A stretch of DNA of 64,000 bases from Psammoneis japonica (lineage: Eukaryota), in contig QPGO01000040.1 of the NCBI GenBank assembly GCA_008632985.1, positions 253,719 to 317,718 on the forward strand. The letters run 5' to 3'. Within the stretch, counting starts at the first letter, position 1, and every line of letters starts with the position of its first letter. The notes beneath the pieces were generated by a model. The model was not told the origin of the DNA and ran no database searches. It saw only the letters and a list, made by a program, of their open reading frames with translations. Positions 1 to 64,000 of this stretch are shown here, one piece after another. The translations under genes and the position numbers were made by a program.

Positions 1-495
1 CACAAAGCGACACAGGATGAAGGCCTTTGATGGAGCGAAAAGAAGCCTGCATTGTGACAGAAGATGGCAAATTATGATGACCGCCACAGAGGCAGAATTC
101 GCCTTGTGTTGGCGAAAAAAAAAAAAATGGGCCTCTGCTCTACTCCACTCTAGAGAGAGACTCTCTGCTCTAGCTACTCTCTAGAGTAGCTAGACTCTAG
201 AGTAGAGAGAGAGTAGGGAGAGGGCCTGTGCGGCAAGGAATCCGCCCGCAGATGAGCGCGATCTGTTGAGTGTTGCCAGTTGCCACTGGCTAACAGACAC
301 ACAGCAGAGCTTGCTCATGATCAACAGGCTGCTACCGGTAATACAATAACACCTAAACATGCGCCAGGCGGAAGAACGATTGCATGCAACGAGAAGAAGC
401 AAAATGCACTTTGTTCGTCATACTGTACGTCCAATAAAACGGACGTGATCAGCGGCCAACAACTAAAGTAAAACAAGAACAACAAATAATAAGTG

Positions 496-16469: not shown

Positions 16470-16473
16470 GTTT

Positions 16474-23100: not shown

Positions 23101-23159
23101 TGGTTCAGCGGTTCAGCACGGCCAACTCGGAAAGCAAGACATTTTTGCTTGACAAAGCA

Positions 23160-23360
23160 TTGACATGACGTCACAGTGAAGATGACGTCACATGAGAAAA
23201 AAAATGTCCCAGCGACGTCATCTTCAATGTCTCATCTTCAAGCGATGTCAAGCATGTCACATCGTATGATGTCACATCATACAACATGATGTGATGTGAC
23301 ATCACACAATGAAGTGTGACATGATGTGATGTGAGATGACACAGCAGATGACGACATTGC
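23160..23360. repeat. Low-complexity GATGTCACAT/GATGACGTCA repeat
   Basis: Short reiterated ATG/CAT/CAC motifs visible directly. Confidence 0.6.
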
Positions 23361-23829
23361 AAACACACCTTTCTTCTTGTGCCTTTTGGCTTTTCCTTTC
23401 ACTCGGACATTGAGAGCCTCGGGCAAAAACTCGCCAGACATGACAAACAAGGTCGCAATGAAGTCATTCCCAACCATTGAAGAGCACTCCATGCTATGAA
23501 GGAAAAGGTCACAGGAAAGAAGAAGCGCCGCGCACACCATGAAAAAGAGAGGATCTGGGACGGCTTTGTGGACTTTGGAGCTTGCCGCGTGCGTGACGTT
23601 GCATTTGTTGAGATGGACAGGACAGCCGTGCGTGATGTTGCATTCATTGAGACAGGACAAATTGAGCTTTGGTTCAGCGCTGGTTCAGCAAAAATCAATT
23701 GCCCTTTGGATGCTGGCTCAGCAAAAAATGTCTTGGCTCAGCACTTTGTCACTTGTGGTTTTTGAACTGTTGCAATTTTATTCTTTTGTTGTTGAGAGAC
23801 AATGTCAGTCATTTTGTCACCCCCCACCA

Positions 23830-35044: not shown

Positions 35045-35690
35045 CTGGCAAGGCAGGTTGTGAGACAATGCACAAGCTCAGCTGCAGTGACTGGACGACA
35101 CCAGTCGCAGCTCTCACAGAGACCTGATCACACAGGTTGTGAGAACACGACACAACGCTGCGGTGATCGGACAGCACCGACGCAGTTCGTCAAGCAACCA
35201 ATTCACTTGGCTGCGGTGACTGGACGACACCAGTCGCAGCTCTCACAGCGACCTGATTGCACAGGTTGTGAGCAAACAACACAGCGCTGCACCTCGTGAC
35301 GCAGGTTGTGAGATGACGCACAAGCTCAGCTGCGGTGACTGGATGACACCAGTCGCAGCTCTCACAGAGACCTGATCGCACAGGTTGTGAGAACACGACA
35401 CAACACTGCGGTGATCAGGCAGAACCGATGCAGTTCATCAAGCAACTGATTAATTCGGCTGCGGTGACTGGACGACACCAGTCGCAGTGCTCACAGCGAC
35501 CTGATTGCACAGCTTGTGAGAAGACGACACAGCGCTACGGTGAACGGGTGGCACTGACGCGGTTCATTGATCAACTGGACAGAACCACTGCGGTGACTGG
35601 ACGACACCAGTCGCAGTGCTGCAGGTGGCGAGAAAACACACATCGCTGTGGTGATTGGACAGCACCGATCGCAGCTTCACGGTGATCGCA
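35045..35690. repeat. Tandem array of five ~120-129-bp hairpin-forming units upstream of Helitron Rep
   Basis: ctgcggtgactggacgacaccagtcgcag recurs at about 35082, 35211, 35330, 35459 and 35588. Confidence 0.9.
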
Positions 35691-38600
35691 CTGAAAAAAC
35701 AACCATTTTTGCTGGGCAATTTCTTGAAATTTGTTGAGTTAAAGTGTCAGCTTAAATTAAAACGGACGAGGCCAAGTGTTTGCAATGCAATCAATGGAAA
35801 GTTTGAGATGCTTCATCTGCATGGAGACGGAGAATTTAGACCACACGCATGTTCAGTCTGTGACATTCTGCTGAAACCTGGAGAAGTTTGCCACTTGCCG
35901 CTCGAAACATTGGAATCAGCAAGAAACTTGCTCACCCCTTCAGACTGGAACAGCGCATCTGATCGTCTCAAGTCCTGCTGCACTGTAGAGCATGAAGATG
36001 CTGATTGGATCAAAGAACTGCTGCTTTCTCCCCGCGCCCAATGCGCAGCACAGGAAGACAGACGACGCGTCGACGGATTCACTTGCTGCAGCGAATGCCG
36101 AAGAAGCCTGGGAAGAGCCGTTGTGCCAATGCACGCGACAGCGAACAACTGCTGTTTCGGCACCCCGCCGCACGAACTGTTGTCTCTAACCGAAGCAGAA
36201 TTGGCAATGCTCACACCAGTGAAAACATGCGGATGCTGCTTCAGCTGCCTTGGCGGCAAACAGAAGAAGCTTCAGGGAAGTCTGACGTGCTACAAAGTCA
36301 AGATGCAAAGCATCGTAAGAACTGTTGTGCACTTCGACGCACTGAATTTACATCAGAATGTGATTGCACTGATGACTGGAAAGATGACTCCGGAGCAAAG
36401 ACAACTTGCGCGTTCAAAGAACAGAATTAGGACGCACTGCATGCCAAGGGCGATGGAATGGCTGTTGTGCCACAACCAAGAGTGGGTGCACCAACAGATG
36501 AATCTAGACAAAGTTGGGCGCAATCTGCGGAATCCCACACTTGTCGATGGCACCGGCGAAGAAGAAGGAGAAAATGCAAATGTTGAGACCTCAGAGTCAT
36601 TTCATGTTTGCTTTCCTGATGGAACCATGTCTCCTGCGACCGGTGGTCAGCGCAACCTGGACTGCTTCAAAGATCTTGCACACGAAGCCACTGCCAACGG
36701 ATTTGATTTAGAGGTGCAAGCACAGTTGTCCAAAGAATCTGCGAGTGATTTCAAAGGCAACAACTTCATCAACGCGTGTCTGCTGCAGTTTCCTTTTGGC
36801 AGAGGAGGAATCAATGAGACGAGAATGAAGAAAGACGGAAGTCTCACAGATGGCACTAACCTTGCACACTGTGCCGACCACTTGGCACGGATTTCCCAGC
36901 CTCACTTCCACGAGCAGCTCTTCGTGTTAACATGCTGCAACTTGACAATGAAGCAAAGGATGCTGCAGAGCGCAGGGTGGAAAGTCAGGGACAAGAATCA
37001 GGCTGCACAGTTTGCAAACGAACCAACAGTGGACGATGTGGACAGAGCTGTTTGTGATCGCAACTTGGGCAAGAGAAGAGATTGTGGACTCGGGCACCAC
37101 TTTTGCGCGCACTCGACGTTGCATCTGCGTCTCTGCCACACAGCAACGAAGCAGCAAAGAAAATGAGGAGAAACGCCGAAACTTGTCAGCATCATTTTGG
37201 TCAGGGTGGCATTTTCTTAACCGTCAGTCCGGACGATGCAAATTCGTTTCTTGTGCAACTGCACTCGGGTGTCATCCTGGACCCAAACGAAGACGTGACA
37301 CAACTGACGGACGAAATTCTTGCTGGCAGGGCCAAGCAACGTAATGAACTGCGTCTAAAGTTTCCCGGTCTAACAGCCTTTGTATTCGAGTGCTTGTTTG
37401 ACATTGCAACAGAAGAGGCAGTGGGTTGGGATCTGAGTGCCAACCAACCAAGAGAAAACTTTAACTTCTACATTGGCAGGCCAGCCGCATTTTTAGCCGC
37501 AGTTGAGGAGCAGGGACGTCTGACAGCACACGGACACATGCAGATCTGGTTCGCATCGATCAACAATGCAAGAGAGAAACTGCATTCGCCAATGAGACAG
37601 ATCCGACGCGAAGGTGCTGAGCACCTCACCAACACAGTTCAGAAGATCTGCAGCACGGAATTAATCTGCAGCGAGGACTTCAGCACTAACGCGTTGCGTG
37701 AAGCATTCGATCATGACTGCGCAGCACCAAAAATGTGTCGCACCTCTCCAAAAGCAGCAGACGACCAACAGCTAAGAAACCTGAGGCACAAAGACGGCCA
37801 GCAGTCGAAGAACGGAATGTTTGCTTGTTGTCGTCACTGCACCAAGTGCTGGACAAACGTCGAGTTTGTAGAAAGCTTTTTACAGTCACGGCACCGTGCA
37901 CCTGGCCTGACTCGCTGTCCAGACAACCATGCAAAGTGACTAAAAGCAATGTGTGTGCAACACCAGCGAAGTGGTCCGCAAGGGACAACAGAGGCACACA
38001 CACCGGACGCAGCTTACAACCATCACATGCACGTTACGAAGTCGTGTTTTCCCAAATGCGCAGAGTTACGTAAAATGCGTAAAAAAACCCCACACGAGGA
38101 ACTGGACGCGCTGTCAAGGAAAAGGAAACGAGAGGAGCTCAAACCAGGTGACTGCCGTCACAGGCAACCAGCTGCTTCGTGTCCAAACAATTTGGCAAGG
38201 AACGCAGATGACACTCAGATAAAGTGGTTCAGCTGGGATGGACTTTTGCGTGTCGGCACGTGAAGGAAGTTGTTCGAAGAGGAGAAAGTGCGATGCTTTT
38301 CAAAACGTGTCGTGCCCTGCAATGGCAGATCAAAACTGACATGCAACACAAACATTGCTTTGTTGATGCCTGGACCGTCTGCTCAACACACGATTGGGCA
38401 CATCCTAAAAGATGCCCAGAAAGATGATGCTGCATCGTACGACGAAGTGCTTCGAACTACGAACAGGACAGCAACAGAATTACGGAAACACGCATCTGAT
38501 GCATCGGAAGCAATCAGACGTCTCACATGGGGTGCTTGCTCGCATGACAAGACGAACGTCATTGGACCACCACTTGCGTCTTACATGACAAGGAACGGAA

Positions 38601-40976
38601 GCCGTTTCATCTGATCTCATTTGACCGCATGGTGCCCCTTGAAAGACATTGTCAGCACACTAGAAAGAGACGAAGTGTCTGCGACTGTAGCCCATTTTGG
38701 CGACACACCGTTCTTCCAATGCCAGGCCTTGCACTGCCCATGTCGTCCAACAGCACTGGAGAATCTCAGTCCGTTTGCGTTTTTCAGTGAGTGCGAAGTT
38801 CTTCGCAACACAAGGAAAAACGAACACGGCATGATGATGTTCGACAACAGAGCGCACAGGCACCCGTCTTGCAATTCAACGAAGAATGAGTTTCTTCAAG
38901 GTGTCAGACAGCGACAGCAACCGCGATTGTTAAAAGCACTTCAGTGTGATTTTCCTGATGCAGCCAAGTTTGGCAGTTGCCTTGTAGATCCGCAGCAACC
39001 AACAACACCAGACAAAGAATTGCACTGCAAGTTGGCATTGGCCTTGTTTGCGCCTTGCAGAACAATGACGGAACTCAAACCAATGACCCGTGCATGCCTG
39101 CGTGAATTCCAACTCTCCGCAGCAGCCGGTGTCATTGCAGAGGAAAACTTGAACTTCTTGCAGAACCTGCAGGATGCTAAGTCCAACTGCCTTCGTCTCA
39201 AAAGCACATCTGACGATCTGCAAAGAAAGACGGAGCAATTTAGACCTGCTGACGTTGCGTTTGACTGTTGCAAAAGTGACGAGGAAGAAGGTCTTTCAGG
39301 CGCCGTTCAGGGTCAACTGCTGGATGCACTCTTGGAAGAAATGGCAGAGCAGCCAGAAGACGATGACATTGGGTTGAGCGACCAAGCAGTTGTTCCTGCG
39401 CATTTGAGCGGCAAACGTGCAAGACAGAAAGGTTCACACATGGGTGGTTGCAAATGCTTGGCAGACATGCACACTGACCCACCAAACGAGGAAAGCCAGG
39501 TCAATGAACGACAACTTTTTGAGAATCTAGAGGGCGGCGATGACACCGACGAGGAAGACCAGAATGAAGGAGTGCAACAACACATCCACAGCAGACCACT
39601 GTCAAGAGACGACATTGTTCGAGTGACACTGACTAGAACGCAAAGAACAAGAAGGTCGTTTGAGGACATGACAGGTTTGGAAGAACACGTCGATGTACGT
39701 CAAGCAAACGGATCTGCAGCAAGCATCGTAGACTGGGCTAGGAAAGCAAGACTGGACAGGCAACAGCAGCGTGCCTTTGAAATTCTAGCAGGAACCTTTG
39801 TGCTCACTTGCTGCCAAGACGCTCTTCAAGACGAGACGTCACGCAATGGACTCAACAGGAGAAATGGCAGACACGAATTCGCAACAAACCTTCGCCGATT
39901 GAAGAAACTCGTGGAAGTGCAAAGACGCAGAACGTTGCAACTTGTGTGTTTTTTACATGGTGCAGGTGGAAGTGGCAAATCAACCACAATGGACCTCGTC
40001 GTGGAATGCGGAAGAGAGCATTGCTCGCTTGTTGAGCAGCCGTTCACAACAAGCACAATCAGAGTGACTGCACTGACCGGAGTGGCTGCGACTGTTCTCA
40101 AAGGGGACACAATCCACCGAGTTGCATGCCTCATGAGAAGAAAGCAAATGACCGAAGAGCAAATTGAAGCATGGTCAGACACGAGACTTTTGGTGGCAGA
40201 CGAGATTTCTTTTGCAAGCAAGAGAGAACTAGAAAAACTCCATGAGAATTTGACAGCATTGAAGAGCGAATTGAGCAAGCCGCACGGTGGTGTCAACATT
40301 GTTTTCGCAGGTGACCTCAGGCAACTAGAACCAGTCGGAAAAGGAGTGAAACCACTGTGCAAAGATGTGTGTCCCGAGTTTCACGAGTGGATCAACTGCC
40401 ACATGGAACTTCGTGGTGTACACAGGTTTAAAGACGATCCATCATGGGGAAAACTGCTTGAGAGATTCCGCACTGGTGAGATTGCAGTTGACGACACAGA
40501 GCACATCAACGAACGAGCAGTTCAGAACGAAGATGATCTGCCCAGTGACCTCCGCTGTGCTGCGTGCGCAAATAAGGACAGAGATGCAATTGACACTGGC
40601 CCATTCGAAAAAAGAGTGAAAACACTGCATGGAAGAGATGGAGACGTCCTTGACTCAATGTTGATTTTCAGTGACGACTTGCAGGCACAGAATGGCACGA
40701 GACTCTGCCAACCATTTCCGGTTTGCAACAGCTTCTGGAACAACTGTGGTGAAGGAGACGTTGTCATGCAATCAGGAAGAATGGATCCAGTCTTACAAAT
40801 TTACAGAAGATGCAGAGTCATGACACCTTTCAACGAAAATGCAGCAAACAGTCAAGCAAACGGAACGCAAGCCACTGTTGACAAGGTCGTTCTCAAACCA
40901 GGACAGGAACCAAGACTGGTGACTTTAGACAACAACATTGGCATTCCTGCTGTGCTTGCTAGCAGGTAGACCATTG
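35655..40976 (+). mobile_element. Helitron-family Rep-Pif1 helicase gene, frameshifted and TpA-mutated; runs into an assembly gap
   Basis: DUF6570-like PMHATANN..GTPPHELLSLTEAE; Rep FLTVSPDD, VEEQGRLTAHGHMQIW, HTIGHILK (YxxxYxxK position); Pif1 GAGGSGKS, ADEISF, GGVNIVFAGDLRQLEPV, HRFKDD. Confidence 0.92.
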
Positions 40977-41704
40977 NNNNNNNNNNNNNNNNNNNNNNNN
41001 NNNNNNNNNNNNNNNNNNNNNNNNNNNNNNNNNNNNNNNNNNNNNNNNNNNNNNNNNNNNNNNNNNNNNNNNNNNNNNNNNNNNNNNNNNNNNNNNNNNN
41101 NNNNNNNNNNNNNNNNNNNNNNNNNNNNNNNNNNNNNNNNNNNNNNNNNNNNNNNNNNNNNNNNNNNNNNNNNNNNNNNNNNNNNNNNNNNNNNNNNNNN
41201 NNNNNNNNNNNNNNNNNNNNNNNNNNNNNNNNNNNNNNNNNNNNNNNNNNNNNNNNNNNNNNNNNNNNNNNNNNNNNNNNNNNNNNNNNNNNNNNNNNNN
41301 NNNNNNNNNNNNNNNNNNNNNNNNNNNNNNNNNNNNNNNNNNNNNNNNNNNNNNNNNNNNNNNNNNNNNNNNNNNNNNNNNNNNNNNNNNNNNNNNNNNN
41401 NNNNNNNNNNNNNNNNNNNNNNNNNNNNNNNNNNNNNNNNNNNNNNNNNNNNNNNNNNNNNNNNNNNNNNNNNNNNNNNNNNNNNNNNNNNNNNNNNNNN
41501 NNNNNNNNNNNNNNNNNNNNNNNNNNNNNNNNNNNNNNNNNNNNNNNNNNNNNNNNNNNNNNNNNNNNNNNNNNNNNNNNNNNNNNNNNNNNNNNNNNNN
41601 NNNNNNNNNNNNNNNNNNNNNNNNNNNNNNNNNNNNNNNNNNNNNNNNNNNNNNNNNNNNNNNNNNNNNNNNNNNNNNNNNNNNNNNNNNNNNNNNNNNN
41701 NNNN
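40977..41704. other. Assembly gap
   Basis: Run of N. Confidence 1.
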
Positions 41705-49588: not shown

Positions 49589-52500
49589 CTACGTCTCAAA
49601 GTGCAACTGCTCATGCTTCCTTGCAGCAGATTCGGAAAAGCGGCGACGACTTCGAAACTCGCCGCGCCCCCCTCCTTTCTGATGCAGCTCCCTGGCCGAG
49701 TTAAAGCTGCACGTGCCTCCAAGAATGTCCGAATGCTTCTTTTCGAGGTGACGTGCTACCGCAATAGCGCCCCAGGCAATCCACTTCTCGTGCGCCATGT
49801 AAATGTACTGTCTAGTCAAGTCCGGCAAATTCTTGCTACAGAACGAAGCAGCGAGCTGATAAGTGAGAGCTCCGTCTTGCAAAAAGCCACTCCTTATCGC
49901 AAACGCAACTGCTTTGTCGTATTTCAATCGGACATCATTTGGGTTCTTGGAAGTCAGCGAGCTCATCTCAGCTTGAAGAATCATGCCTTTATGCACCAAG
50001 TTGATCGCTCCAAGCTTTATCCATTTCATTATCAGATCCATATGCATCTTCGCTTCTTGCTTGAACTTTCGCCGTCCGGTACGTCGGAACTGTTCAATCG
50101 CGATAAGAGAGAAAAAGAACACTCTGGTGGGGTAAAACACTTCGGCACGCGTAATCCCGACATCCAGACGTTGCAGTTTTTGCGAAAGATCGCTCGCTCT
50201 CTCCATGTCATCGAAGTAGTAGCAGAGCTGCATCAAGAAAGACCAAGATGCTTGTTCACCGATCTTTTCTTTATTTCCAGCCAGCTTCTGCTTGTCGATA
50301 GCGTAGCCTCGAGTCATATCAAGCGGCGAGTCAGATTTCCCACAAAGATTCAAGACGAACTGCCACATCGGAATAACACAAAACAAGACCATAAACTGTC
50401 CGTAGTCAATCATCTGTTGACCAAATTTGTCAAGATCGTCCAGAAGAGGTAACAACGGAATTCCCGAGTAGCCATATGCCAGAGCATACGTTGCAATACA
50501 GTGAAAGCCGTAATGTTGATCACCAACAGCCATTCCAGCTTTATATCCTTTTAAGGAAGAGTCAAGACTATGAGAGAGCGGCTCCATCCACCACTGAGTG
50601 AAAACACTGAACCAAAAGAATACTTTTGCCTTCACACTGGTCGCTTTCAGTCGATCCGCTAAAGACGCAGCAAGCTTCCCAAGCTGGTATCCATTCTTGA
50701 GATCATCTCGCTGCGCAATCACGTCCGCCCCTGCGACTGCAAAGGCTTCGGGGGCTGAGGTCGTCAATCCACACTTGAAAGTAAGGCTTAGCATACGTTC
50801 AATGATCACTGTGTGCAAATTGGCCATTGCAAGATGGACTACAGGCATCACCATCGCCAGCATAATTTCAATACATGCGGCCTTACGTGAATCCTTCATG
50901 ATCGGTAGGTTGATTATATCTTCCGGAGCCGAATCGTCCAACAGCCTGGTCGTTCTCTTGTAGCTGCGGAGCGCCTGGAGCTTGTTCGGCGATTTAGGTA
51001 AGACTTCGCCAAGCTCTTTCAATGCCCGTAACCCAAAGTCGACAACGTCCCGGTTCTTGGCCTCTGACAGGAGAATCTGCAACATGGTCACGTAGCATCG
51101 TACTTTGTGATCAAATGATCCAGTCGCGAAGACCTTCTCGCAATATCCTTTTGCCCGTTTCATATCGCCACAACAAAAAAGCATTTCAGCGAAATGAACA
51201 TACAGATCGAGAGCGACATTCAAAGCGTGTGTGGGGTTCTCGCCCAGAATGTCAATTCCTGCTTGACAGTATCTGCATGCTGGACGAAATGCTGACAGCC
51301 TTGAGGCGGACTTTGCAGCTTGTAAATTCAGCTTGGCGATTTCTATACGTTGCGCTTGGTCTTTGACGAACTGTTGAGCGCCCAAGTTGACCTGGTCGGC
51401 ACACATGAAACGAAGACGGTCACTATCCGTGCTTGAACAATTAAGAGCATCAATTACAAGCATTCCAATATCCCAGTGAAGCTTGTCGCGTTTTCTCCCT
51501 TTCGGCAACATAGATTTGGCCAGTTCCAGGATTTTGTCGTGACTAAACTTATACCAACCTTTTCCAAGATCATCCAGTAAATGCTCTTCGTTGCATGCGA
51601 CATGAAGTAGCTCGCCGACGTTTGATATTTCAGGAAAGGCCGATTGGCAAGTCTCGATGGTGGTTTGATTACTCCGATATCCAAAGCAGGCAAATAATTT
51701 CAACAGAGCTTGAACAGGTGCTTCTAAACGGTGAATTCTTTGAGCGACGATCTGAACAATGTTCTCACTTAGTGTTGTTTCATTCTGAATTTGCTGCACG
51801 TCATATTCCCATTTCGCGGTGAAAGAGTTGAAGCGAAGAAACCCTTCTCTCTGTAACTCTTCTAGAAACTGCCTTACAAAAAAGATATTCCCGTCGGTGC
51901 GCTGATGAACGACATTTGCTAGAGCGGACGTTTCAGCTTTTGAGTCAACATTGAGAAGAGAAGCCATCATATCATTTACTGACTCTGGATCGAACCCCGA
52001 CAGTCTCACACAAAAAATAGCCCCTGACATAATAGAGCTAGTCAGATTCTCTAAGAACGCTGTTAGCTCATTCGTTGTTTCGTCATCCCGATACGACCCG
52101 CAAAGCACCAAGTTCGAGGCCTTCGGATCGGTAAATACAGACAAGACGATATCAAAGGAATCTTGACCACACCACTGAAGATCGTCGAGTAAAATGACAG
52201 TTTTCTCAAATTCACCCACCGCATAAAGGAAAGCCTTCAGGGCCATTTGAAGCTGTAGCAGGTTTTGTTTCCTGTTACTCGTGGTGTTGGCAATCGACCT
52301 CTCATCATTTTGCTTCTTTTCTTTTTCATCTGCTTCGAACCGAAGTACAGCCCTCGTTTTCGGAATGACAGACATCAACATGTCTTTGTGCTCCTCTTCC
52401 ATGCTATCTCCGAGTCGCAGACGAACCAAACGCAAAAGAGTCTCATTTGCCTGGATCTTTCTAACAATATCAACGACACAGTCTTGAATGGCTTCCAACG

Positions 52501-52732
52501 GAGCAATCCGTGAGTCAAATTTTGCGCATCCAATCAATCGAGGGGTACTTGAGCTTAGAGCGGCCCGAAGTAATCTGGACTTCCCGACACCGCTAGAGCC
52601 TGAAACAAGCACAACTTTCACTGTTGAATTATCAGACTCGAGACATGAACGTATTCGGTTGAGCTCTTCAGACCGCGCAAAGAATCGTCCTTCCAGAGAA
52701 AGTCGCTTTTGATTGTAATCAGTGGGTCTCAT
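49589..52732 (-). CDS. STAND-like AAA ATPase with helical-repeat C-terminus (COG3899-type)
   Basis: Walker A GSSGVGKS, Walker B LLDDLQW, TDGNIFFV, YKFSHDKI, LNLQAA; intact 1047-aa ORF. Confidence 0.88.
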   Translation of the reverse strand: MRPTDYNQKRLSLEGRFFARSEELNRIRSCLESDNSTVKVVLVSGSSGVGKSRLLRAALSSSTPRLIGCAKFDSRIAPLEAIQDCVVDIVRKIQANETLLRLVRLRLGDSMEEEHKDMLMSVIPKTRAVLRFEADEKEKKQNDERSIANTTSNRKQNLLQLQMALKAFLYAVGEFEKTVILLDDLQWCGQDSFDIVLSVFTDPKASNLVLCGSYRDDETTNELTAFLENLTSSIMSGAIFCVRLSGFDPESVNDMMASLLNVDSKAETSALANVVHQRTDGNIFFVRQFLEELQREGFLRFNSFTAKWEYDVQQIQNETTLSENIVQIVAQRIHRLEAPVQALLKLFACFGYRSNQTTIETCQSAFPEISNVGELLHVACNEEHLLDDLGKGWYKFSHDKILELAKSMLPKGRKRDKLHWDIGMLVIDALNCSSTDSDRLRFMCADQVNLGAQQFVKDQAQRIEIAKLNLQAAKSASRLSAFRPACRYCQAGIDILGENPTHALNVALDLYVHFAEMLFCCGDMKRAKGYCEKVFATGSFDHKVRCYVTMLQILLSEAKNRDVVDFGLRALKELGEVLPKSPNKLQALRSYKRTTRLLDDSAPEDIINLPIMKDSRKAACIEIMLAMVMPVVHLAMANLHTVIIERMLSLTFKCGLTTSAPEAFAVAGADVIAQRDDLKNGYQLGKLAASLADRLKATSVKAKVFFWFSVFTQWWMEPLSHSLDSSLKGYKAGMAVGDQHYGFHCIATYALAYGYSGIPLLPLLDDLDKFGQQMIDYGQFMVLFCVIPMWQFVLNLCGKSDSPLDMTRGYAIDKQKLAGNKEKIGEQASWSFLMQLCYYFDDMERASDLSQKLQRLDVGITRAEVFYPTRVFFFSLIAIEQFRRTGRRKFKQEAKMHMDLIMKWIKLGAINLVHKGMILQAEMSSLTSKNPNDVRLKYDKAVAFAIRSGFLQDGALTYQLAASFCSKNLPDLTRQYIYMAHEKWIAWGAIAVARHLEKKHSDILGGTCSFNSARELHQKGGGRGEFRSRRRFSESAARKHEQLHFET

Positions 52733-53229
52733 CCTTACGTGGTATTAAAAAAACTACCTGCTTCCTTTTTCTTCGCATTCCTCGGCATAGTAGAGGGACA
52801 ACCATTTTTTCCTCAGTCTATCTTCAAGCAGCAAACGCAAACCAACACTCTGCGATCCTGCTTGAGCCACGCCTGCATTCGTTGCGTTAACGGTTTTATC
52901 CCGATATATCTCATATTATGATGAATCCAGATTTCCGACCGTTATCTTTAAGGGCACTTGACAGACCGCCTCACAATTTCCGAGATAGAGCGAGGAGTCA
53001 TGCCGGTTGCCGGTGCCAGAGGATTGTGCTGGACCCACCGCTGTACGGTGCCGTCACTCTAGCAGCTCGCCGTTCCATTCCGTTCAAGCCCATGCATCCA
53101 TGTCCTCTCAGAACACTAAAACGCGACAGTCCGTGTTGCTCCTGCCGCCCTGCTTTCAGCGATCTTTCCCAAAGGACTCTTCAAAATGCAACAATGGCGA
53201 CACACCAATGCGTTGATTTGAAGAGAAAG

Positions 53230-56781: not shown

Positions 56782-57228
56782 TGCAACACACAGCTGCCAA
56801 CAAGAGTCAATGCATCACGGCGACGTGTTGCAGTCTTTAAATGTCACAAAGGGCGTGACAAAAACAACCTTTTGTCTGCATGCATGCTGCACCATGAATT
56901 CACAGCGGAGTGGTTCATCTCGCAACCATTGGGCAGGAGGCCAGGGGTTCGAAACCCGAGTGGGAGTTGTCTGCAGCAACGTTGATCACTGTCCAACGCG
57001 TAAAACTCTGTGCAGTTCTGTGTGTTCCTCGCACGCACCCACACTGTTCTGCCAAAACCGTGCAGTGTCAGTGCACGTTGGCAAAGAGCCGCATGGACGC
57101 GTGACACATGGGGAGGAGTGCAACACACAGCTGCTGACAAGAGTCAATGCATCACGGCGACGTGTCACAGCCTTTAAATGTCACAAAGGGCGTGACAAAA
57201 ATGACCTTTTGTCTGCATGCATGCTGCA
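56782..57228 (+). mobile_element. TRIM-like element: 110-bp LTRs (56782-56891, 57119-57228), 4-bp TSD GCTT
   Basis: TG...CA direct repeats; purine tract ggggaggag before the right LTR; removal restores ISNKVLGILRTLF. Confidence 0.88.
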
Positions 57229-59275
57229 GCTTGGCATTCTCCGCACCCTCTTCATCTCCAGCTGGCAAAGCGAGCCTCACCAACAGCACCAGAACTTTGC
57301 TGAACGTTGCTGCCAAACCATCAAGAACATGTCCAACACCATCATGGATTGCTTTGGCTCACCGGCTTGCACGTGGCTTCTTGCCCTTGTGTGCATGTGT
57401 TTTCTGCTGAATCACACCACTTCTGCCAAGCTCCACTGGCGCACCCCGACTGAGGCACTGACCGGATCTGCTCCCAACATCAGCCCCCTCCTCCATTTTC
57501 ACTAGTGGGAACCACCCGGTGCACTGCCATTTGGACGACTCCGACTGGCCCTCCGAATCCCGTGAACTGCGTGGCAGCTTCGTTGGCATCGCTGAACACG
57601 TTGGCCACCACATGACCTTCAAGATTCTTTCTGATGACACCCAGAAGATTTGTTGCCAGTCGAATGTACGTTCTGCTGCCGGCATGCCCTTGATGCACAA
57701 CTTGCGTCTTGATCCTCCTGATGGGGAGACTGCTGCACCCATCATCAAATCCTGCCACGACTCTGAAGATCCGCCAGATTCATCAGATGGGGAGAAGATC
57801 AGGATGCCCAAGATGCCAGTCTTCAACCCCGAGGATGTCGTCAGACTTGCCTTCCTCATGAAGCCACAAGAGAGTGGACAGCACTGCCAAGCTTGCATCA
57901 TCAAAGCCATTGAAGACCACAACTGGGAGATTGGCAACAACCCGGAGCTTGTCCAGTTCATCTGCTCCATCAACAACAATGAGCATGAAGAAGTCCTTGC
58001 CTGCAATGACATCATCAACCACACAGAGCAAGAGGAAGATGACACTGCTGTGTGGAAATTTTGATGCATTGTGTCACATGAAGGACCGTTGAGGCCTCAC
58101 GACCCCTCATGGAAAGGCTCGAGCTACAATGTGATGCTCAAGTGGGAAAGTGGGGAGATCACGTCTGAGCCCCTGGCCATCATTGCCAAGGACAACCCTG
58201 CAACACCTGCGCCATCCATGCACGCGAACATGGCCTTCTCAAAACCGATGGATGGAAGTGCTTGCGGAAGACAGCTCTGCGCCAGAAGAAGCCATTTCGC
58301 ATGGCCAACCAAGCCAAGCTTTGCTCCTTTCATGCGGCCCCACACTGCAAGTGTGGATGCAAAGTGCCCCGTGACCACAGGCGTGCTCTTGCTCTTGATG
58401 AGCACAATGGCAATCACAAGTGGGGAGATGCAACGGACCTTGAGATGAATCAACTCAACAAGCACAGGGTCTTCCATGACTGCGGGCACTGCAAGGAATC
58501 CAGTGCGCTGCCAGCCAGGACACAAGAAGATCCGCGTGCACTTGGTTTGTGACGTGAAGCACAACGGCAGACACAAGGCACGTCTCGTTGCCAGCGGGCA
58601 TCTCACTGACACACCCGTCAACAGTGTGTGATCCGGTGCAGTGTCTCCACATGGCCTTCAAACGATGATCTTCCTGGCTGAACTCAACGAGCTGGAGAGA
58701 CATGGGCTGCCAATGTTGGCAATGCCCCTCTGGAAGCTGCAACCAAGGAGAAGCTGCACATCATCGCGGGCCCCAAATTTGGTGATCTCAAAGGACACAT
58801 CCTTGCAATTCACAAGGCCCCATGCAGTCTCCACAGTTCTGGCCTCAGGTGGCACGAATGTTTCGCCGATTGTCTGCAAGCTGAGGGATTCTTCCCCTGC
58901 CGTGCTGAACCCGACATCTGGTTCCATCAAAATGGTGATCACTGCAAGCTCACGGCAGTGCATGTGGACAATTTGGCCTTCACCATGAAGGACCCGCAGA
59001 CATTTGTTGACACTCTCATGGAGAAGTGCAAGTTCAAGCTAAAAGGAACTGGCTCTCTGCAGCTTCACCTTGGCTGTGACTTCTGCCATGACTCTGATGG
59101 CACGCTTTGCATGGCCCCTTGCAAGCACATCAAACATGTGGTCGAGAATTGGGCACGACTGTTTGGGGAGAAGCCCTGCACCAACACATTGTCAACACTC
59201 GAGAAAGGAGACCATCCCAAGCCAGACACCTCCGAACTGTCAGGACCCGAAGGTGTTCAACACTTCCAGTCGCTC

Positions 59276-60006
59276 TGACAGGATTTAAACAAGATTGACC
59301 AACTCGATTAAATCCGACCCATCAACCTGAAAAATTGCGACACCCAGGAATCGAACCTAGGTCCTCTAATGACCGGTTACCGACTAAACCATTTGCCGCA
59401 TTCTTCAAACTGACAGGCTTTTTGTACACAGTCACACATGTTTCAGCCAGAGAGTGACATGCACCTTTAATTCTTCTTAGAATTCTGTCACTCCCCACAT
59501 GTCACGAAGCTGTCTGACGTCACGAAGCTGTCTGACGTTCCTTTCTTTGGACAATGACACTTCTCACAGCTCCCCTTCTACCTGGGCCACATTTTTCTGC
59601 ACATGTCATGACCTCCCCGGCGAGCTGGCAATTGGGCGACCATTCCGGCCTCGGCACCCCTGATGAGAGCACTGTGTGCATCGTCGGTCTGTCTCACCGC
59701 AGCCTCTCCTCAGTTTTAGAGTCATCTTGAAGGAGCACACACACCTGGGTTCAAATCATCAACGGTCCTCGCATCATGACAGGGTGCACCATGACAGGAT
59801 TTAAACAAGATTGGCCAACTCGATTAAATCCGACCCATCAACCTGAAAAATTGCGACACCCAGGAATCGAACCCAGGTCCTCCAATGACCGGTTGCCGAC
59901 TGGACCATTTGCCGCACTCTTCAAACTGACAGGCTTTTTGTGCACAGCCACACATGTCTCAGCCAGAGAGTGACGTGCACCTTCAATTCTTCTTAGAATT
60001 CTGTCA
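59276..60006 (-). mobile_element. TRIM with 215-bp LTRs (59276-59490, 59792-60006) containing a tRNA-like sequence
   Basis: TGACA...TGTCA ends; TSD cgctc/ctctc; minus-strand PBS-like TGGTGCACCC and PPT-like GGGGAG; removal restores QSLIGSLQW. Confidence 0.9.
59336..59399 (-). ncRNA. tRNA-like Pol III unit in LTR (second copy at 59852-59915)
   Basis: A box TGGTTTAGTCGG, B box GGTTCGATTCC, acceptor stem GCGGCA/TGTCGC, followed by TTTTT; anticodon arm shortened. Confidence 0.7.
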
Positions 60007-60589
60007 CTCTCATTGGGTCTTTGCAGTGGGCCGCATCCCTTGGGTGCATTGACATCACCACAGTCGTCATGTTCCTGTCCAGCTTCCGATCCGCACCCCA
60101 TCAAAGCCATTTGGACCATGCCAAGCATGTCGAGGTTTCCTGTCTGAGATGTGACATGGTGTCTTGCAAGTGCACACCAAGTGACCCGACTGTTTGGACC
60201 TTCACAAGCCTGTGTGCAACTGGGCTCAAATTGTGCACGGCAGTGTGAAGGAACTGATCCCAGAAGACGCGCCTGAGCCCCTTGGCAAATTCGTCACCAC
60301 CGCACATTGTGTTGGTGCGAACTTGTTTCACTGCAGGCTCACTGGGTGCTCCATCATGGGCATTCTTGATGTCCTCAACAAGTTCCTGGCTGACTGGCTC
60401 TTCAAGAAACAAGCTGCAGTTGAGACCGCAACTTGTGGGTCTGAATTTGTTGCTGCCACCAGGACTTGTGCAGAGCAAATCATTGATCTGCGCACCATGC
60501 TGCGTCACCTTGGGGCTCTGATTTGTGACCAATGTCACATGTTCGGGGACAACAAGTTGGTTGTTGACAGCACCACCATCCCACACTCT

Positions 60590-63500
60590 AAAAAAAACCC
60601 AGCCCAATTTAAAGTGCCGCCGCACCTTTGCCCAGCAACACCGGCGCCGGCCAACCCACACCTCCAGCACACTTGACTTGCAAGTGCGGCAGAAGTGGAT
60701 GCGACCAGCCTGAAACGGTGCCTCCCGGAGGAGACGCCCGACGGAAATAACTGGCAATGGTGCGTGTGCCACGACGCGCCAGTTTCCTGGCTTCCTTCAA
60801 ACTTTCTTTTAATCGGGGACGAACCGCAGCGATCCAATTCTGAATTCGAGCCGTTGTGAACGTCTTGTGTTCTTCCACTGAATCAAGAAGGGCTGCTCAA
60901 TCTTTCGCAAGGTGCTCTTGTTGTTTGTCACATGTTGCGGTCAGTTCTGCTTCTGCCATTCACCGTTGGGATGACTTGCGTGAATCCGCATCGTGGCCAT
61001 GCACAAATGCATTGTGTTCCTCCCACAGTTCCCACCATTGTCTCCAGATGAATGACCCGATCTGTGCCATCCAATCTGGTGGATGCTTGTCTTCAGCTTC
61101 ACATTGGCGAAGGACACCCGAATCCCGCAAATGTCCCGACTGAATCAGGTTCCACAAAGTTGAACAGCGGCCACTAAAAATCTGTCTCCAACCAATGTCT
61201 GATTGCGCGCGCCACAGCTCCCGACAGCGGCAATCGACATCGTCCGTGCAAATGATCTCTTCGTTAAACCAGGCTTGAAGAGAATTGATGAGGAAGTCTC
61301 GTAGAGTTGGCATTGCATCGATGTGGTCGCAATGTTTCCGAAGGCCTTGTGGAAACTTCCGGCGCCATGCTTCGTTTTCTGGACATCGAAGGATGTGATC
61401 CCTGTCTTCCACAGGATGCTCACACTCAAGGCAGTGATGAGGACGAACCGGATTGTGCCGGTGTGTTGTCTTGTTGGCAGGAAGGAGATCGTGTGCGAGT
61501 TTCACCGTGCCAACGTGTTGCTTGGAATGACGCTTGATCAAAACTGCGTGGGCATCCCAGTTCACGAGGTCAACAACCTCTCGTCGCCATTGATTGCGCT
61601 CGACTGTGTGCTCCAACAGCTGGGGAGCAGCAGCTGCATTTCGAAGCTGTTGCTTGCAACCAGAGGTCAAGGTGCCGTCTGCAAGCAACAAGTGAGAATG
61701 GCAGTGAGGAAACGGGAGAACACGTGATGTGTCCCAATCACAGCGACCTTGACAGGCGCCAGCAAGTCGATCCGCTCTGATGTTCACTCTTGCATTTGGG
61801 GGAAGTGAGCCAACAGGAGCGTGCTTGTCTTGATGCCCCTTTGCCCACTTGATCGACATGTTTTCCGGATCTTGCAATTGTTGAAACACATGCAATGTCT
61901 CGTCAATGACATCCCAATCCGAGGACAGCGCATTGGCTCCGTGGTGTCGTAAATAAAAATCACGTGAATCGTGAGAAGAGTCTTCTGGATTTGGAGCGGG
62001 AAGGGTGAGAGCAAGCTTCTTGAGACAGGACACAAGCGACTTGTTGTCACAATGAATGTCCAATGTCTTGTTCAATCTGGAATGGTGACATGCAACACAT
62101 CGGCAGATAAAACGAAGAATGGAAAGGACACCGCAAGCCTCTGCACGGTGCGACGATGGTTCATGCCCGAAACTGGTCCTGCACAATCTACGAGGGGAAC
62201 CCCTTGGAGTGTGATCGACCACCCAAAGGCAGCGCCTTCGTTGACAGATCCATCACTTCCCGCGACAAGTGCAGAAGAGTCGAAGTGTTGAACCAAGAGA
62301 AGGGGGGAAACATGGAAATCTAGTTCCGCAAACAGCTGAGATTCCCATTGAGGGAGTGATTTCAGCATGTCTTGAAAAGAATCTGGAGCACTCGGTGCGA
62401 TTGCAGGGGCCACCGTCGTTCTTGGGATGCTGAATTGCCATCTTCCGTCTTCTGTCGTAGTGACGTCTGCTGGGTGTGATTCATCGGTTGGCGCTGGTGC
62501 CACCTCGATCTCTCCAATGGATGCCGCTCTCGTTCCGTCGACCAAGAAGATCTCAAACCCTGACGGGCCCTTGACGTGTGGGCAATTTTCTGAGGAAGAA
62601 CAACAAGCTGACGCCTGCATGCGCATCTGCGATGGAGGAACTGGCCAGTCTCCCAGTGGTTCCTTTGAACGAATTGTGGAGGCATGGCACAGGGTTTTGC
62701 AAAATTTCTTCCACACTGACCAGGCCCGAGCATTCGGCTTGTGTTGTTCAACATTGTTCAACGCACTCACACTGCTCCGAATCGAGGGGTCACCATTTGC
62801 CTTGGTTTCATCCAAATGTGTGCCATCCGCTGGGGTCATGTCGGAGACTGCAAGCACACGAAGGAACAATCGGCAACAATCAATCCATCGGATTTCTCTG
62901 TGACTGAACTGTTGTGATCGAAGCACAACATCCACAACAAATTGGTCGTTGTCACGTTGAAGGGGCAGAATGCCATTGTGTGTCAGACAGACTTTGCCCT
63001 TGATTCCATGCAGAAACGAGCGAACTGAAGCGAACCAACACGATTCAAGGTGTGGCAACGGAGTGTCGACGTCCCATGAGAAGCTGTCACCTGTGCCCAA
63101 GTTCAGCTGTGTCCATGCGATTGCGACATGAAACAGTTTGTGAGGTTGATCCTCTCCGAGATGCAGATTCTCGACTCCCCGGGAATGTTTCAGCAATTGC
63201 TGCAATTGGGCCACACCCTGCTCTGCGTCAAGGGATCTAAAACCTCCTCCACCGAGTGCTTGGGGACCGTGTAGAATGAGTCGTTTGGTGTTGCGGTTGT
63301 AACCACATTTGGCAAATGTCACTCTCATCGCCTTCTGCTGAACTTTCTGGAGCTCTTTGTCCTGAAAATTAGAATTCGGCAACANNNNNNNNNNNNNNNN
63401 NNNNNNNNNNNNNNNNNNNNNNNNNNNNNNNNNNNNNNNNNNNNNNNNNNNNNNNNNNNNNNNNNNNNNNNNNNNNNNNNNNNNNNNNNNNNNNNNNNNN

Positions 63501-64000
63501 NNNNNNNNNNNNNNNNNNNNNNNNNNNNNNNNNNNNNNNNNNNNNNNNNNNNNNNNNNNNNNNNNNNNNNNNNNNNNNNNNNNNNNNNNNNNNNNNNNNN
63601 NNNNNNNNNNNNNNNNNNNNNNNNNNNNNNNNNNNNNNNNNNNNNNNNNNNNNNNNNNNNNNNNNNNNNNNNNNNNNNNNNNNNNNNNNNNNNNNNNNNN
63701 NNNNNNNNNNNNNNNNNNNNNNNNNNNNNNNNNNNNNNNNNNNNNNNNNNNNNNATCTTGTTTCAAGGCATGGGACAATTCGAACGCTGTTGGTTGGGGG
63801 CCAGTCCTAAACTCGTTGACCTGTTTGGAAGTGTCATCGACGTAGCCTCTGTTGTGTGCTCTAATGAAGAACTTCCCATCTGGAGTCTCGAAAAAGGACC
63901 CGATCGCATTGGCGTCAAAAATGTCAAACAAACGACTGCACAGGGTGTTCCAGCACCAAGGAGAGTTGCCGCTCCCTTGTCCTGTTCCGTAAAGAGGGTG
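60590..64000 (-). mobile_element. Ambal-like non-LTR retrotransposon (RT + RNase H + zinc finger), truncating the Copia
   Basis: YVDD (about 63835); GPQALGGGGF; RNase H SDGS...FGW, SSHRAEACG, HCDN, WAKGHQD, NIRADRLA; CLECEHPVEDRDHILRC. Confidence 0.85.
63385..63755. other. Assembly gap
   Basis: Run of N. Confidence 1.

What the first reader, a model, noticed from the sequence alone, without database searches (positions are those of the whole stretch)
59276..60006. LTR pair gives an internal readout of the mutator: 12 of 12 differences are A/G or T/C in one direction
LTRs are identical at insertion. By hand count the two 215-bp copies differ at 12 sites, always A or T in the left copy and G or C in the right. 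Six are at TpA: cctag/cccag, tctaa/tccaa, gttac/gttgc, actaa/actgg, tgtac/tgtgc, tttaa/ttcaa. The pair alone cannot fix direction, since RIP on the left copy would look the same. However, the embedded tRNA-like T-stem (CTAGG/CCTGG) pairs better, and the D-loop GGTAA fits tRNA consensus better, in the TA-containing copy. The one-sidedness also suggests patchy or processive action.
Basis: partly seen in the sequence, partly recalled or inferred. Interest (0 to 1): 0.8.

Follow-up and report, generated by a model that had tools for sequence, protein, structure and literature searches.

The report
One-sided mutated LTR of a tRNA-bearing TRIM
A 731-base miniature LTR retrotransposon carrying a tRNA-like piece sits inside a dead copia element, and one of its two repeats carries a one-off burst of A:T-to-G:C changes that differs from the ordinary CpG decay seen in the other repeats nearby.

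Summary
The two 215-nt repeats (59276-59490, 59792-60006) differ at 12 sites. All 12 are transitions, with A/T on the left and G/C on the right (two-sided binomial p 0.0005).

The repeats are true LTRs of a 731-bp non-coding TRIM on the minus strand. It has TG..CA ends, a 5-bp target duplication (4 of 5 match), a polypurine tract, a candidate primer site, and a tRNA-like box A/box B unit followed by TTTTT. This matches the published Helenus/TRIMp3 type, here in a diatom-like stramenopile.

Contigs of the one run that holds the locus show tens of copies. The family majority has the left-hand letter at 6 sites robustly and at 3 more partly. Three sites cannot be read, and none favours the right copy. 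A G at 59395, seen only in this element's two LTRs, argues against whole-LTR conversion. So the right copy (the element's 5' LTR) looks derived by A:T>G:C.

This is not a general mutator. The three other young repeat pairs in the window differ by 27 transitions that are mostly CpG decay.

My best reading is one error-prone DNA synthesis episode, probably the reverse transcription that made this copy. Confidence is moderate.

The parts
58682..59275 (+). Left part of the host: reverse-transcriptase region of a degraded copia-type element, interrupted by the insertion
   Evidence: The ORF 58682..59278 ends ...HFQSL. Pfam RVT_2 hit, E 8.3e-09.
59271..59275 (.). Left copy of the 5-bp target site duplication (CGCTC)
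   Evidence: Junction print. The right copy reads CTCTC, a 4 of 5 match.
59276..59490 (-). Left LTR, which is the 3' LTR in element sense. This is the A/T copy and looks like the family majority.
   Evidence: Contigs from other copies break away exactly at 59275/59276 and at 59490/59491 (loose ends).
59330..59399 (-). tRNA-like unit of the left LTR, about 64 nt at 59336-59399 read on the minus strand. It has a box A-like TGGTTTAGTCGG and a box B GGTTCGATTCC, and is followed by TTTTT (59330-59334).
   Evidence: Sequence. ARAGORN by default and the Rfam tRNA model give no hit.
59491..59498 (-). Polypurine tract, reading GTGGGGAG on the minus strand directly before the 3' LTR
59491..59791 (-). 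Non-coding internal region (301 nt). It differs from the family majority at 59498, 59558, 59624 and 59665, each time with C/G in the window and T/A in the family.
   Evidence: table 3: shares of the family letter are 779/847, 424/424, 485/771 and 507/552.
59502..59537 (.). 18-nt unit repeated twice in tandem. The main family contig has it too.
   Evidence: Sequence. Record 6 covers 59462-59603 with 0 gaps.
59763..59776 (-). Candidate primer binding site, TGATGCGAGGACCG. In the family majority it lies directly next to the 5' LTR.
   Evidence: The joint 59776>59276 has depth 385 in X1 and 339 in X2. It is the only exact match in the window.
59777..59791 (-). 15-nt insert not seen in the family contigs laid. 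On the minus strand it reads TGGTGCAC, the complement of an RNA end ...GTGCACCA, followed by a repeat of the LTR's last 7 nt, CCTGTCA.
   Evidence: table 5 (joint, 7 letters fit both sides).
59792..60006 (-). Right LTR, which is the 5' LTR in element sense. This is the G/C copy carrying the 12 changes.
   Evidence: Record 5 (depth 43.5, 6 differences) confirms its last 106 nt.
59846..59915 (-). tRNA-like unit and TTTTT of the right LTR. Five of the 12 changes fall in it.
60007..60011 (.). Right copy of the target site duplication (CTCTC)
60012..60676 (+). Right part of the host copia reverse-transcriptase region. The reading frame resumes with IGSLQW...
   Evidence: ORFs 59997..60248 and 60185..60676. 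Removing 731+5 nt puts 59997 in the frame of the ORF that starts at 58682 (my arithmetic).

Best explanation
The feature is a 731-bp non-autonomous LTR retrotransposon (TRIM) of the Helenus/TRIMp3 type. It lies on the minus strand, inside the reverse-transcriptase region of a dead copia element in a diatom-like stramenopile.

Its two LTRs come from one insertion. The right copy, which is the element's 5' LTR, is the changed one. It carries about 11-12 A:T>G:C transitions, and the internal region carries 4 more. The 3' LTR carries none.

I read this as the trace of one error-prone DNA-synthesis episode in which G was put in for A and C for T. Most likely it was the reverse-transcription cycle that made this copy. 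In that cycle both strands of the 5' LTR derive from plus-strand strong-stop DNA, which is a separate copying pass from the one that gives the 3' LTR. Errors made there are therefore 5'-LTR-only from birth. Errors made earlier, in the minus strand, end up in both LTRs (59395) or in the internal region.

Shown: the anatomy, the one-sidedness, the family majority at 6-9 of the 12 sites, and the distinct signature. Inferred: that all changes belong to one episode, and that the episode was reverse transcription rather than a later repair tract.
For: Anatomy:
- TG..CA ends, a 5-bp duplication matching at 4 of 5, GTGGGGAG before the 3' LTR, and a restored copia frame.

Family (82 X1 contigs laid at 80% or more; two single-copy markers have depth 54.6 and 43.5; the summed depth over the LTR bins is about 775-3450):
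- Record 4 (depth 650 of about 775-857) has the left letters at 59358 and 59367.
- The right letters at 59426, 59432 and 59442 stay under 5% of depth 2459-3452, although record 5 shows them well away from its ends.
- At 59459, G makes up 105.8 of 1672.
- Contigs of depth 339 and 424 carry the left letter at 59298 and 59468.

One insertion:
- G at 59395 has depth 91 of 1707, which is two copies, namely this element's two LTRs. It lies 8 nt and 6 nt from sites where the two LTRs differ. This argues for point changes in place and against whole-LTR conversion.

Same direction elsewhere in the element:
- 59395 and four internal sites are G/C in the window and A/T in the family.
- Rates per A/T site are 12/124 (5' LTR), 4/133 (internal) and 0/124 (3' LTR). 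Fisher p is 0.0004 for the right against the left LTR.

Signature:
- The 6 A>G and 6 T>C changes interleave along the LTR. This is what two opposite copying passes, or one pass with both mispairs, would give.
- 6 of the 18 TpA-context sites changed against 6 of 104 others (p 0.0024).
- Only 1 of 12 sites is a CpG, whereas the other young repeats differ mostly by CpG decay.

Aberrant junction:
- A private 15-nt insert sits exactly at the 5' LTR/primer-site junction. It consists of the complement of an RNA ...CCA end plus a repeat of the LTR end. This is where plus-strand transfer takes place.
Against: - The polarisation rests on summed contig depths from a single run, not on aligned copies.
- Differences closer than about 31 nt to the end of an aligned piece are not listed. 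As a result 59379, 59386 and 59387 cannot be read, and 59298, 59401 and 59468 only in part.
- Record 4 has two unplaced differences from the left copy that probably lie in that blind zone. They could be right-type letters.
- The family is dominated by a recent, uniform burst (contigs of depth 385-650). 'Majority' therefore means the state of a young master, not a rooted ancestor.
- At 59395 the window's G gives a Watson-Crick pair in the tRNA-like acceptor stem where the majority A gives a wobble. That hints the other way for this one site.
- If the right copy were ancestral, no context preference would be needed at all (CpA test p 0.35).
- A misincorporation rate of a few percent per pass is extreme for a natural reverse transcription.
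- The internal changes are 2 A>G and 2 T>C, so a single minus-strand pass with only G:T mispairs does not explain them.
- 59459 is a CpG and may be ordinary decay in the left copy.
Confidence: 0.5

Rival explanations
1. A post-integration patch. After insertion, roughly 0.5 kb (internal region plus right LTR) was resynthesised by a low-fidelity polymerase during break or gap repair, or was hit by a regional A:T>G:C process. The reverse transcription of this copy was normal.
For: The direction evidence is the same as for the best explanation. The changes form a gradient of 0/124, 4/133 and 12/124 per A/T site from left to right. In 9 of the 12 LTR changes, and in 14 of all 17 changes by my tally of the contexts printed, the changed A follows an A or T. 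This resembles the WA>WG preference recalled for DNA polymerase eta. My literature check for that reached only a search listing.
Against: It does not explain why the patch stops within a few bases of the LTR/polypurine boundary. It does not explain the private junction insert or the shared change at 59395. The WA enrichment within the LTR is not significant (p 0.07). No data exist for the right flank.
Confidence: 0.17
2. Gene conversion. The element inserted with G/C-type LTRs from an old, now rare lineage. The family master later gained C>T changes and burst. The left LTR was then overwritten by a majority-type copy.
For: Ectopic conversion between TE copies is common (general knowledge). It would give a block of differences confined to one LTR. 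The family majority is a young, uniform burst (contigs of depth 385-650). The window's G at 59395 pairs better in the tRNA-like stem than the majority's A (layout).
Against: The left LTR keeps the private G at 59395 between converted sites 8 nt and 6 nt away, so two separate tracts would be needed. G/C letters at 59426, 59432 and 59442 are under 5% of depth, so no source lineage is visible. All 17 master-lineage changes would have to be non-CpG C>T except one, although the window's ordinary repeat decay is CpG-type. The rest of the element would have no private decay.
Confidence: 0.15
3. RIP-like or deaminase C>T hypermutation of the left LTR only. On this reading the family signal misled me, for example because majority-rule consensus fails where many copies are mutated at the same hot sites.
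For: 6 of 12 sites are CpA>TpA if read in this direction, which is the classical RIP context as I recall it. Majority consensus is known to fail in RIPped families. The three blind sites and the two unplaced differences of record 4 leave room.
Against: CpA is not enriched (6 of 38 CpA sites against 6 of 65 others, p 0.35). Only one of the two copies is hit. Parallel hits at non-CpA sites (59432, 59442) in nearly all copies are implausible. Copies that are identical over 88-142 nt at 8-14 times single-copy depth argue against independent mutation of each copy. The host is diatom-like, not a fungus.
Confidence: 0.08
4. An adenine-directed editing system: an ADAR-like activity on RNA, or an adenine deaminase acting on cDNA or duplicated DNA. 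This would be the general 'mutator' the first reader had in mind.
For: The direction A:T>G:C and the preference for a T before the changed A (p 0.0024) fit what I recall of ADAR-type neighbour preferences.
Against: RNA editing followed by reverse transcription would be strand-specific and would reach both LTRs. Here the split is 6 A>G to 6 T>C, interleaved, and confined to one LTR. No other repeat in the window shows the pattern.
Confidence: 0.07

Closest known systems
Helenus (TRIMp3), TRIMs with a tRNA-derived sequence in their LTRs. Source: Kojima 2024, PMC10886601; I read the abstract, results part 1, the discussion, and the figure and table legends.
   Same: A short non-coding LTR element: 731 bp, against the published range of 311-1263 bp. 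The LTRs carry box A/box B tRNA-like sequence. It has a PPT, a primer site next to the 5' LTR, and a 5-bp target duplication as in the fungal and plant (copia-dependent) members. It is multi-copy with solo or other-flank copies.
   Different: The host lineage differs. Table 1 of the paper lists fungi, animals and one lycophyte, and the words diatom, stramenopile and protist occur 0 times. The tRNA-like part here is too decayed or shortened (about 64 nt) for ARAGORN or the Rfam tRNA model. A TTTTT run follows it directly. The primer tRNA is not identified.
Cassandra, TRIMs with a 5S rRNA unit in the LTR (as described in PMC10886601)
   Same: A polymerase III-type small-RNA unit inside each LTR of a miniature LTR element.
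   Different: Cassandra carries 5S, not a tRNA-like unit, and is known from land plants only. Transcription of the present element was not tested.
Hypermutation during reverse transcription. G>A through APOBEC3 or dNTP imbalance, and U>C/A>G hypermutants with biased dNTP pools, are recalled from the retrovirus literature. Of Kim et al. 1996 J Virol ('A-to-G hypermutations') I saw only the title, in a reference list; the paper is not held.
   Same: A burst of one class of transitions at percent level in a single retroelement copy. A step-specific origin can make the two LTRs differ from birth.
   Different: The known natural cases are strand-specific (G>A or A>G on the sense strand). Here both A>G and T>C occur, only A:T>G:C, in a TRIM of a protist. 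No enzyme or pool condition is shown.
RIP (repeat-induced point mutation) of fungi
   Same: Transitions only, in repeated DNA, on both strands, with half the sites at the CpA/TpA dinucleotide.
   Different: The direction inferred here is the reverse. Only one of the two copies is affected. CpA is not enriched (p 0.35). The host is not a fungus.
Methyl-CpG deamination of silenced transposons
   Same: This is the process that does explain the other young repeats of the window: TG/CA doublets and single CpG losses. It probably explains site 59459 as well.
   Different: 11 of the 12 LTR differences are not at CpG.

Membership tests
Helenus / TRIMp3 | TRIM architecture: two short LTRs, a short non-coding internal part, a total length of a few hundred bp | tested here: met
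   LTRs of 215 nt, internal part 301 nt, total 731 nt. The published range is 311-1263 bp.
Helenus / TRIMp3 | tRNA-derived sequence in the LTR with conserved box A (TRGCY..YGG) and box B (GGTTC) | tested here: inconclusive
   Box B GGTTCGATTCC is exact. The box A-like TGGTT..AGTCGG matches 4 of 5 plus YGG. A compact cloverleaf can be drawn. However, ARAGORN by default finds nothing and the Rfam tRNA model gives no hit at E up to 10. Censor against tRNA/SINE2, the paper's own screen, was not available.
Helenus / TRIMp3 | PBS next to the 5' LTR and PPT next to the 3' LTR | tested here: inconclusive
   The PPT GTGGGGAG is clear. The sequence next to the 5' LTR in the family majority is TGATGCGAGGACCG. 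No tRNA of this organism was available to match it.
Helenus / TRIMp3 | Target site duplication of 5 bp (copia-dependent members) | tested here: met
   CGCTC and CTCTC match at 4 of 5. Removing the element plus 5 nt restores the copia frame (my arithmetic).
Helenus / TRIMp3 | Dispersed multi-copy family | tested here: met
   The summed depth over the LTR bins is about 775-3450, against about 45-55 for single-copy pieces. Other flanks begin at 59275 and 59490.
Helenus / TRIMp3 | Transcription from the polymerase III promoter | not testable with these tools
   No RNA run was listed. The paper itself leaves this untested for Helenus.
RIP | C>T at CpA in both members of a duplication | tested here: not met
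   The split between copies is 12:0. CpA enrichment has p 0.35. The family majority carries the A/T letters.
ADAR or APOBEC editing fixed through reverse transcription | One substitution type on one strand, inherited by both LTRs where the edited part is U3 or R-U5 of the RNA | tested here: not met
   6 A>G and 6 T>C changes interleave and occur in one LTR only.
Methyl-CpG decay | Changes at CpG giving TpG or CpA | tested here: not met
   1 of 12 sites (59459) is at a CpG. 7 of the 8 CpGs are kept in both LTRs. The other young pairs do meet this test.

The most novel reading that the evidence does not exclude
This diatom-like alga has an adenine-directed DNA mutator that acts on retroelement cDNA or on repeated DNA. 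It would be a mirror image of APOBEC3 restriction or of fungal RIP, writing clustered A:T>G:C changes with a preference for TpA. This LTR pair would then be its first visible footprint.
Probability: 0.07. Interest if true: 0.9.

Novelty: new member of a known kind. Interest (0 to 1): 0.42.

Why it matters
There are three points.

First, LTR divergence is widely used as an insertion clock. Here most of the 5.6% divergence seems to come from one burst in one LTR, so the clock would badly overdate this copy.

Second, the element would extend the recently described tRNA-bearing TRIMs (Helenus/TRIMp3) to a stramenopile lineage. Such copies can be miscalled as tRNA genes or missed altogether.

Third, a cluster of A:T>G:C changes confined to the 5' LTR, beside an aberrant strand-transfer junction, would be a rare natural record of a single hypermutagenic reverse transcription. 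If instead it reflects an adenine-directed defence, that would be new biology.

The finding also shows that the window's ordinary repeat mutator is CpG deamination, not the pattern in this pair.

Tried and rejected
- Whole genome: none is held for this window. The decisive alignment of all family copies could not be made.
- Other copies in the window: none was found by BLAST with word size 9 or by nhmmer with --max.
- Public collections: two metagenome scans with LTR 22-24-mers gave 0 matches, and one viral scan gave 0.
- tRNA detection: ARAGORN by default found nothing. With relaxed thresholds it gave only implausible models of 100 and 79 nt. The Rfam tRNA model gave no hit.
- tRNA-based polarisation: rejected as indecisive, because the fixed cloverleaf and the free fold disagree.
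- Protein-level reconstruction of the copia family: not attempted. The single-copy E1 gene has no hit above 48% identity, so this organism's proteins are apparently not in the database.
- Earlier notes of this scan: none for this genome.
- A search for the primer-site motif elsewhere in the window, to find the autonomous partner, gave only two 2-mismatch matches (15873 and 38364). I did not follow them.
- GC-biased gene conversion was considered. I rejected it as the main cause because it should not stop between two LTRs 516 bp apart and has no TpA preference.
- Chance under a symmetric process is rejected (p 0.0005).
- The paper by Kim et al. 1996 is not held.

Full report
**1. The observation**

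The window holds one direct-repeat family near the given coordinates: 59276-59493 and 59792-60009, 218 nt at 94% identity. The last three bases (CTC) are shared flank. Each repeat proper is 215 nt, starts with TG, ends with CA, and has the inverted ends TGACAG/CTGTCA.

A base-by-base comparison gives 12 differences, no gaps and no transversions. The left copy is always A (6 sites) or T (6 sites), and the right copy is always G or C. The two kinds interleave along the repeat.

Twelve of 12 in one direction has a two-sided binomial p of 0.00049. A self-BLAST of the window found 17 repeat pairs. No other pair is one-sided; the counts include 7:8, 18:20, 21:29 and 9:9.

**2. What the repeats are**

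The pair flanks a 301-nt non-coding stretch. The whole 731-nt unit splits a copia-type reverse-transcriptase reading frame:
- The ORF 58682..59278 ends ...HFQSL and hits Pfam RVT_2.
- The frame resumes after the unit with IGSLQW....
- The five bases before the unit (CGCTC) and after it (CTCTC) match at 4 of 5.
- Removing 731+5 nt restores the frame (my arithmetic).

On the minus strand, GTGGGGAG lies directly before the left repeat, which is a polypurine tract. The right repeat is followed by a candidate primer site. The element therefore reads on the minus strand, with the right repeat as its 5' LTR and the left repeat as its 3' LTR.

Each LTR holds, in element sense, a tRNA-like unit of about 64 nt. 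It has an exact box B (GGTTCGATTCC) and a box A-like TGGTT..AGTCGG. A 6-bp acceptor-like stem, a D-like arm and a short anticodon-like arm can be drawn. A TTTTT run starts two bases after it. The unit is too decayed or shortened for ARAGORN or for the Rfam tRNA model at E up to 10.

This anatomy is that of Helenus, the TRIMs with a tRNA-derived sequence in their LTRs described by Kojima in 2024 under the collective name TRIMp3 (PMC10886601). I read the abstract, results part 1, the discussion and the legends. The paper lists fungi, animals and one lycophyte. The words diatom, stramenopile and protist do not occur in it. A search for later papers on Helenus or TRIMp3 showed none on such hosts, judged by titles only.

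The host here is diatom-like. A 1002-aa ubiquitin-activating E1 ORF at 493-3501 has its best matches in diatoms, at only 42-48% identity.

**3. The family**

No genome is held for the window. The window has no further copy. Scans of public contig collections found nothing.

One public run, X1, holds the locus. I laid its contigs, and those of two sister runs, on 59150-59791 at 80% likeness.
- Eighty-two X1 contigs were laid.
- Pieces that must be single-copy have depth 54.6 (record 1, across the left junction) and 43.5 (record 5, the right LTR: exactly the 6 known differences over 59388-59493, then another flank).
- The summed depth is about 775-3450 over the LTR bins and about 190-1840 over the internal region.
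- Contigs from other copies leave the stretch exactly at 59275/59276 and 59490/59491.

So the family has tens of LTR copies and fewer full elements. Several contigs of depth 385-650 show a recent, uniform burst.

**4. Which copy changed**

The tool lists a difference only if it holds at least 5% of depth and at least one contig shows it about 31 nt or more from the end of its aligned piece. With that in mind:
- **59358 and 59367:** record 4 (depth 650 of about 775-857) covers them 42 and 33 nt from its end and shows no difference there. Its neighbour 59368 is listed with exactly that depth. The majority is left-like.
- **59426, 59432 and 59442:** record 5 shows the right-hand letters 39-52 nt from its ends, yet they are not listed. 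They hold under 5% of depth 2459-3452.
- **59459:** G holds 105.8 of 1672.
- **59298 and 59468:** contigs of depth 339 (X2) and 424 carry the left letter. The rest of the depth is unreadable.
- **59401:** probably left-like, by the geometry of the contigs that carry A at 59395.
- **59379, 59386 and 59387:** these lie in a blind zone between the variable sites 59368 and 59395. Two unplaced differences of record 4 probably lie there too.

In total, 6 sites are robust, 3 partial and 3 unreadable. None favours the right copy.

A further point concerns 59395. A holds 1616 of 1707, and the remaining 91 equals two copies, which are this element's two LTRs. The two LTRs therefore share a private letter, 8 nt and 6 nt from sites where they differ. 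This fits one insertion followed by point changes. It speaks against a whole-LTR replacement of either copy.

Finally, the window's internal region differs from the family majority at 59498, 59558, 59624 and 59665. Each time the window has C/G and the family has T/A.

Relative to its family, the element thus shows 17 transitions, all towards G/C. One is shared by both LTRs, 4 are internal, 12 are in the 5' LTR and none is in the 3' LTR. Per A/T site the rates are 12/124, 4/133 and 0/124.

**5. Not the window's general mutator**

- The three other young repeat pairs (93.6-96.2% identity) differ by 27 transitions and no transversion.
- Printed out, most of these are CpG losses. They include six TG-against-CA doublets, where an ancestral CpG decayed on different strands in the two copies. 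This is the ordinary decay of methylated CpG, and it hits both copies evenly.
- A three-copy family gives 16 GC>AT against 15 AT>GC singleton transitions.
- In the copia flank left of the element, the window has A/T where its family has G/C at three sites (59186, 59189, 59206), again the ordinary direction.
- In the LTR pair only 59459 is a CpG, and 7 of the 8 CpGs are intact in both LTRs.

The pair therefore records a different, local event. Site 59459 may be plain CpG decay of the left copy.

**6. Mechanism**

*Signature.* The changes run one way only (A:T>G:C) and include both A>G and T>C, interleaved. If the left copy is ancestral there is a preference for a T before the changed A: 6 of 18 such sites against 6 of 104 others, p 0.0024. 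Counting all 17 changes by my own tally of the contexts sit at TpA and 14 follow an A or T.

*What this excludes.* RNA editing followed by reverse transcription, and APOBEC-type editing, are excluded. They would be strand-specific, and RNA editing would reach both LTRs.

*What fits.* A polymerase putting G for A and C for T fits. Such a pattern is known for reverse transcriptases with skewed nucleotide pools and for low-fidelity repair polymerases (recalled, not checked in a paper here).

*Why one LTR only.* In LTR-element replication (textbook model), both strands of the 5' LTR derive from plus-strand strong-stop DNA. The 3' LTR keeps the original minus strand. Errors of the strong-stop pass and of its copy are therefore 5'-LTR-only from birth. 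They would give A>G and T>C in similar numbers. Errors of the earlier minus-strand pass appear in both LTRs (59395) or in the internal part. 3'-LTR-only changes are absent in the line that inherits the minus strand. The observed counts of 12, 1, 4 and 0 fit this layout.

*Independent hint.* The element has a 15-nt insert exactly at the 5' LTR/primer-site junction, where the family contigs join 59776 directly to the LTR. On the minus strand the insert reads TGGTGCAC, the complement of an RNA end ...GTGCACCA, followed by a repeat of the LTR's last 7 nt. This is what a failed, non-homologous plus-strand transfer would leave.

I therefore favour a hypermutagenic reverse-transcription cycle. A later repair tract over the same 0.5 kb comes second.

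**7. Weak points**

- The direction rests on depth sums from one run, with blind zones.
- The majority is a young burst, not a rooted ancestor.
- At 59395 the window's G pairs better in the tRNA-like stem than the majority's A.
- If the right copy were ancestral, no context preference would be needed (CpA p 0.35).
The fixed cloverleaf gives -18.7 (left) against -16.6 (right), while the free fold gives -22.4 against -24.2.
- An error rate of a few percent per pass is extreme.

A patchy conversion of the left LTR by a majority-type copy, or a left-only C>T event, cannot be excluded without a full family alignment.

**8. Verdict**

The element is a new-lineage member of a known kind (Helenus/TRIMp3). 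The most likely cause is a single error-prone synthesis episode tied to the 5' LTR. The boldest reading still open is an adenine-directed DNA mutator or restriction system, which I rate at about 7%.

Noticed in passing
window 22277-23080, also 56782-57228: Young tandem or nearby repeats differ only by transitions (15:0 and 7:0). Many of the differences are adjacent TG-against-CA doublets, meaning an ancestral CpG decayed on opposite strands in the two copies. This points to intense methyl-CpG deamination of repeats in this genome.
   Followed up: partly
window 16000-24000: A stretch of 8 kb has very strong purine excess on the + strand (GC skew up to 0.39, AT skew up to 0.30). It carries long minus-strand ORFs (17274-19856 with an RVT_1 hit; 20198-23104 with no Pfam hit). 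In 22277-22669 no A or T site has a TpA context (background). This is unexplained.
   Followed up: no
window 59743-59831 (minus strand against LTR positions 6-87): The end of the internal region carries, on the + strand, a second T-arm-like piece (CCTGGGTTCAAATC). It is inverted relative to the LTR's tRNA-like unit (nhmmer E 0.0084) and overlaps the candidate primer site. It may be a remnant of the primer tRNA or of a second tRNA-derived insertion.
   Followed up: partly
window 59777-59791: A private 15-nt insert at the 5' LTR/primer-site junction holds the complement of a ...GTGCACCA RNA end. It may name the tRNA that primed this particular copy.
   Followed up: partly
window 35655-40969: A Helitron-like pair of ORFs: DUF6570 at 35655-37166, and a PIF1-like helicase with AAA_30 at 38615-40969. 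An N gap follows at 40977-41704.
   Followed up: no
window 493-3501: An intron-free 1002-aa ubiquitin-activating E1 ORF reaches only 42-48% identity to its best (diatom) matches. No near-identical protein is in the 5.8-billion-protein collection. The organism is therefore poorly represented, or this is a divergent paralogue.
   Followed up: partly
window 49589-52744 (minus strand): A 1051-aa ORF with an AAA_16 / STAND-type NTPase domain at its N-terminus.
   Followed up: no
record 9 of run X2: A 1183-nt contig of depth 339 joins about 1 kb of unrelated sequence to the last 111 nt of the internal region and then to the LTR start. It may be a family variant with a different or longer internal part, and perhaps a lead to the autonomous partner.
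   Followed up: no
window 60960-64000 (minus strand): Two long, largely intact ORFs (430 aa and more than 640 aa, the latter broken by an N gap) lie just right of the copia remnant. The 430-aa ORF has no Pfam hit. They may belong to another retroelement.
   Followed up: no
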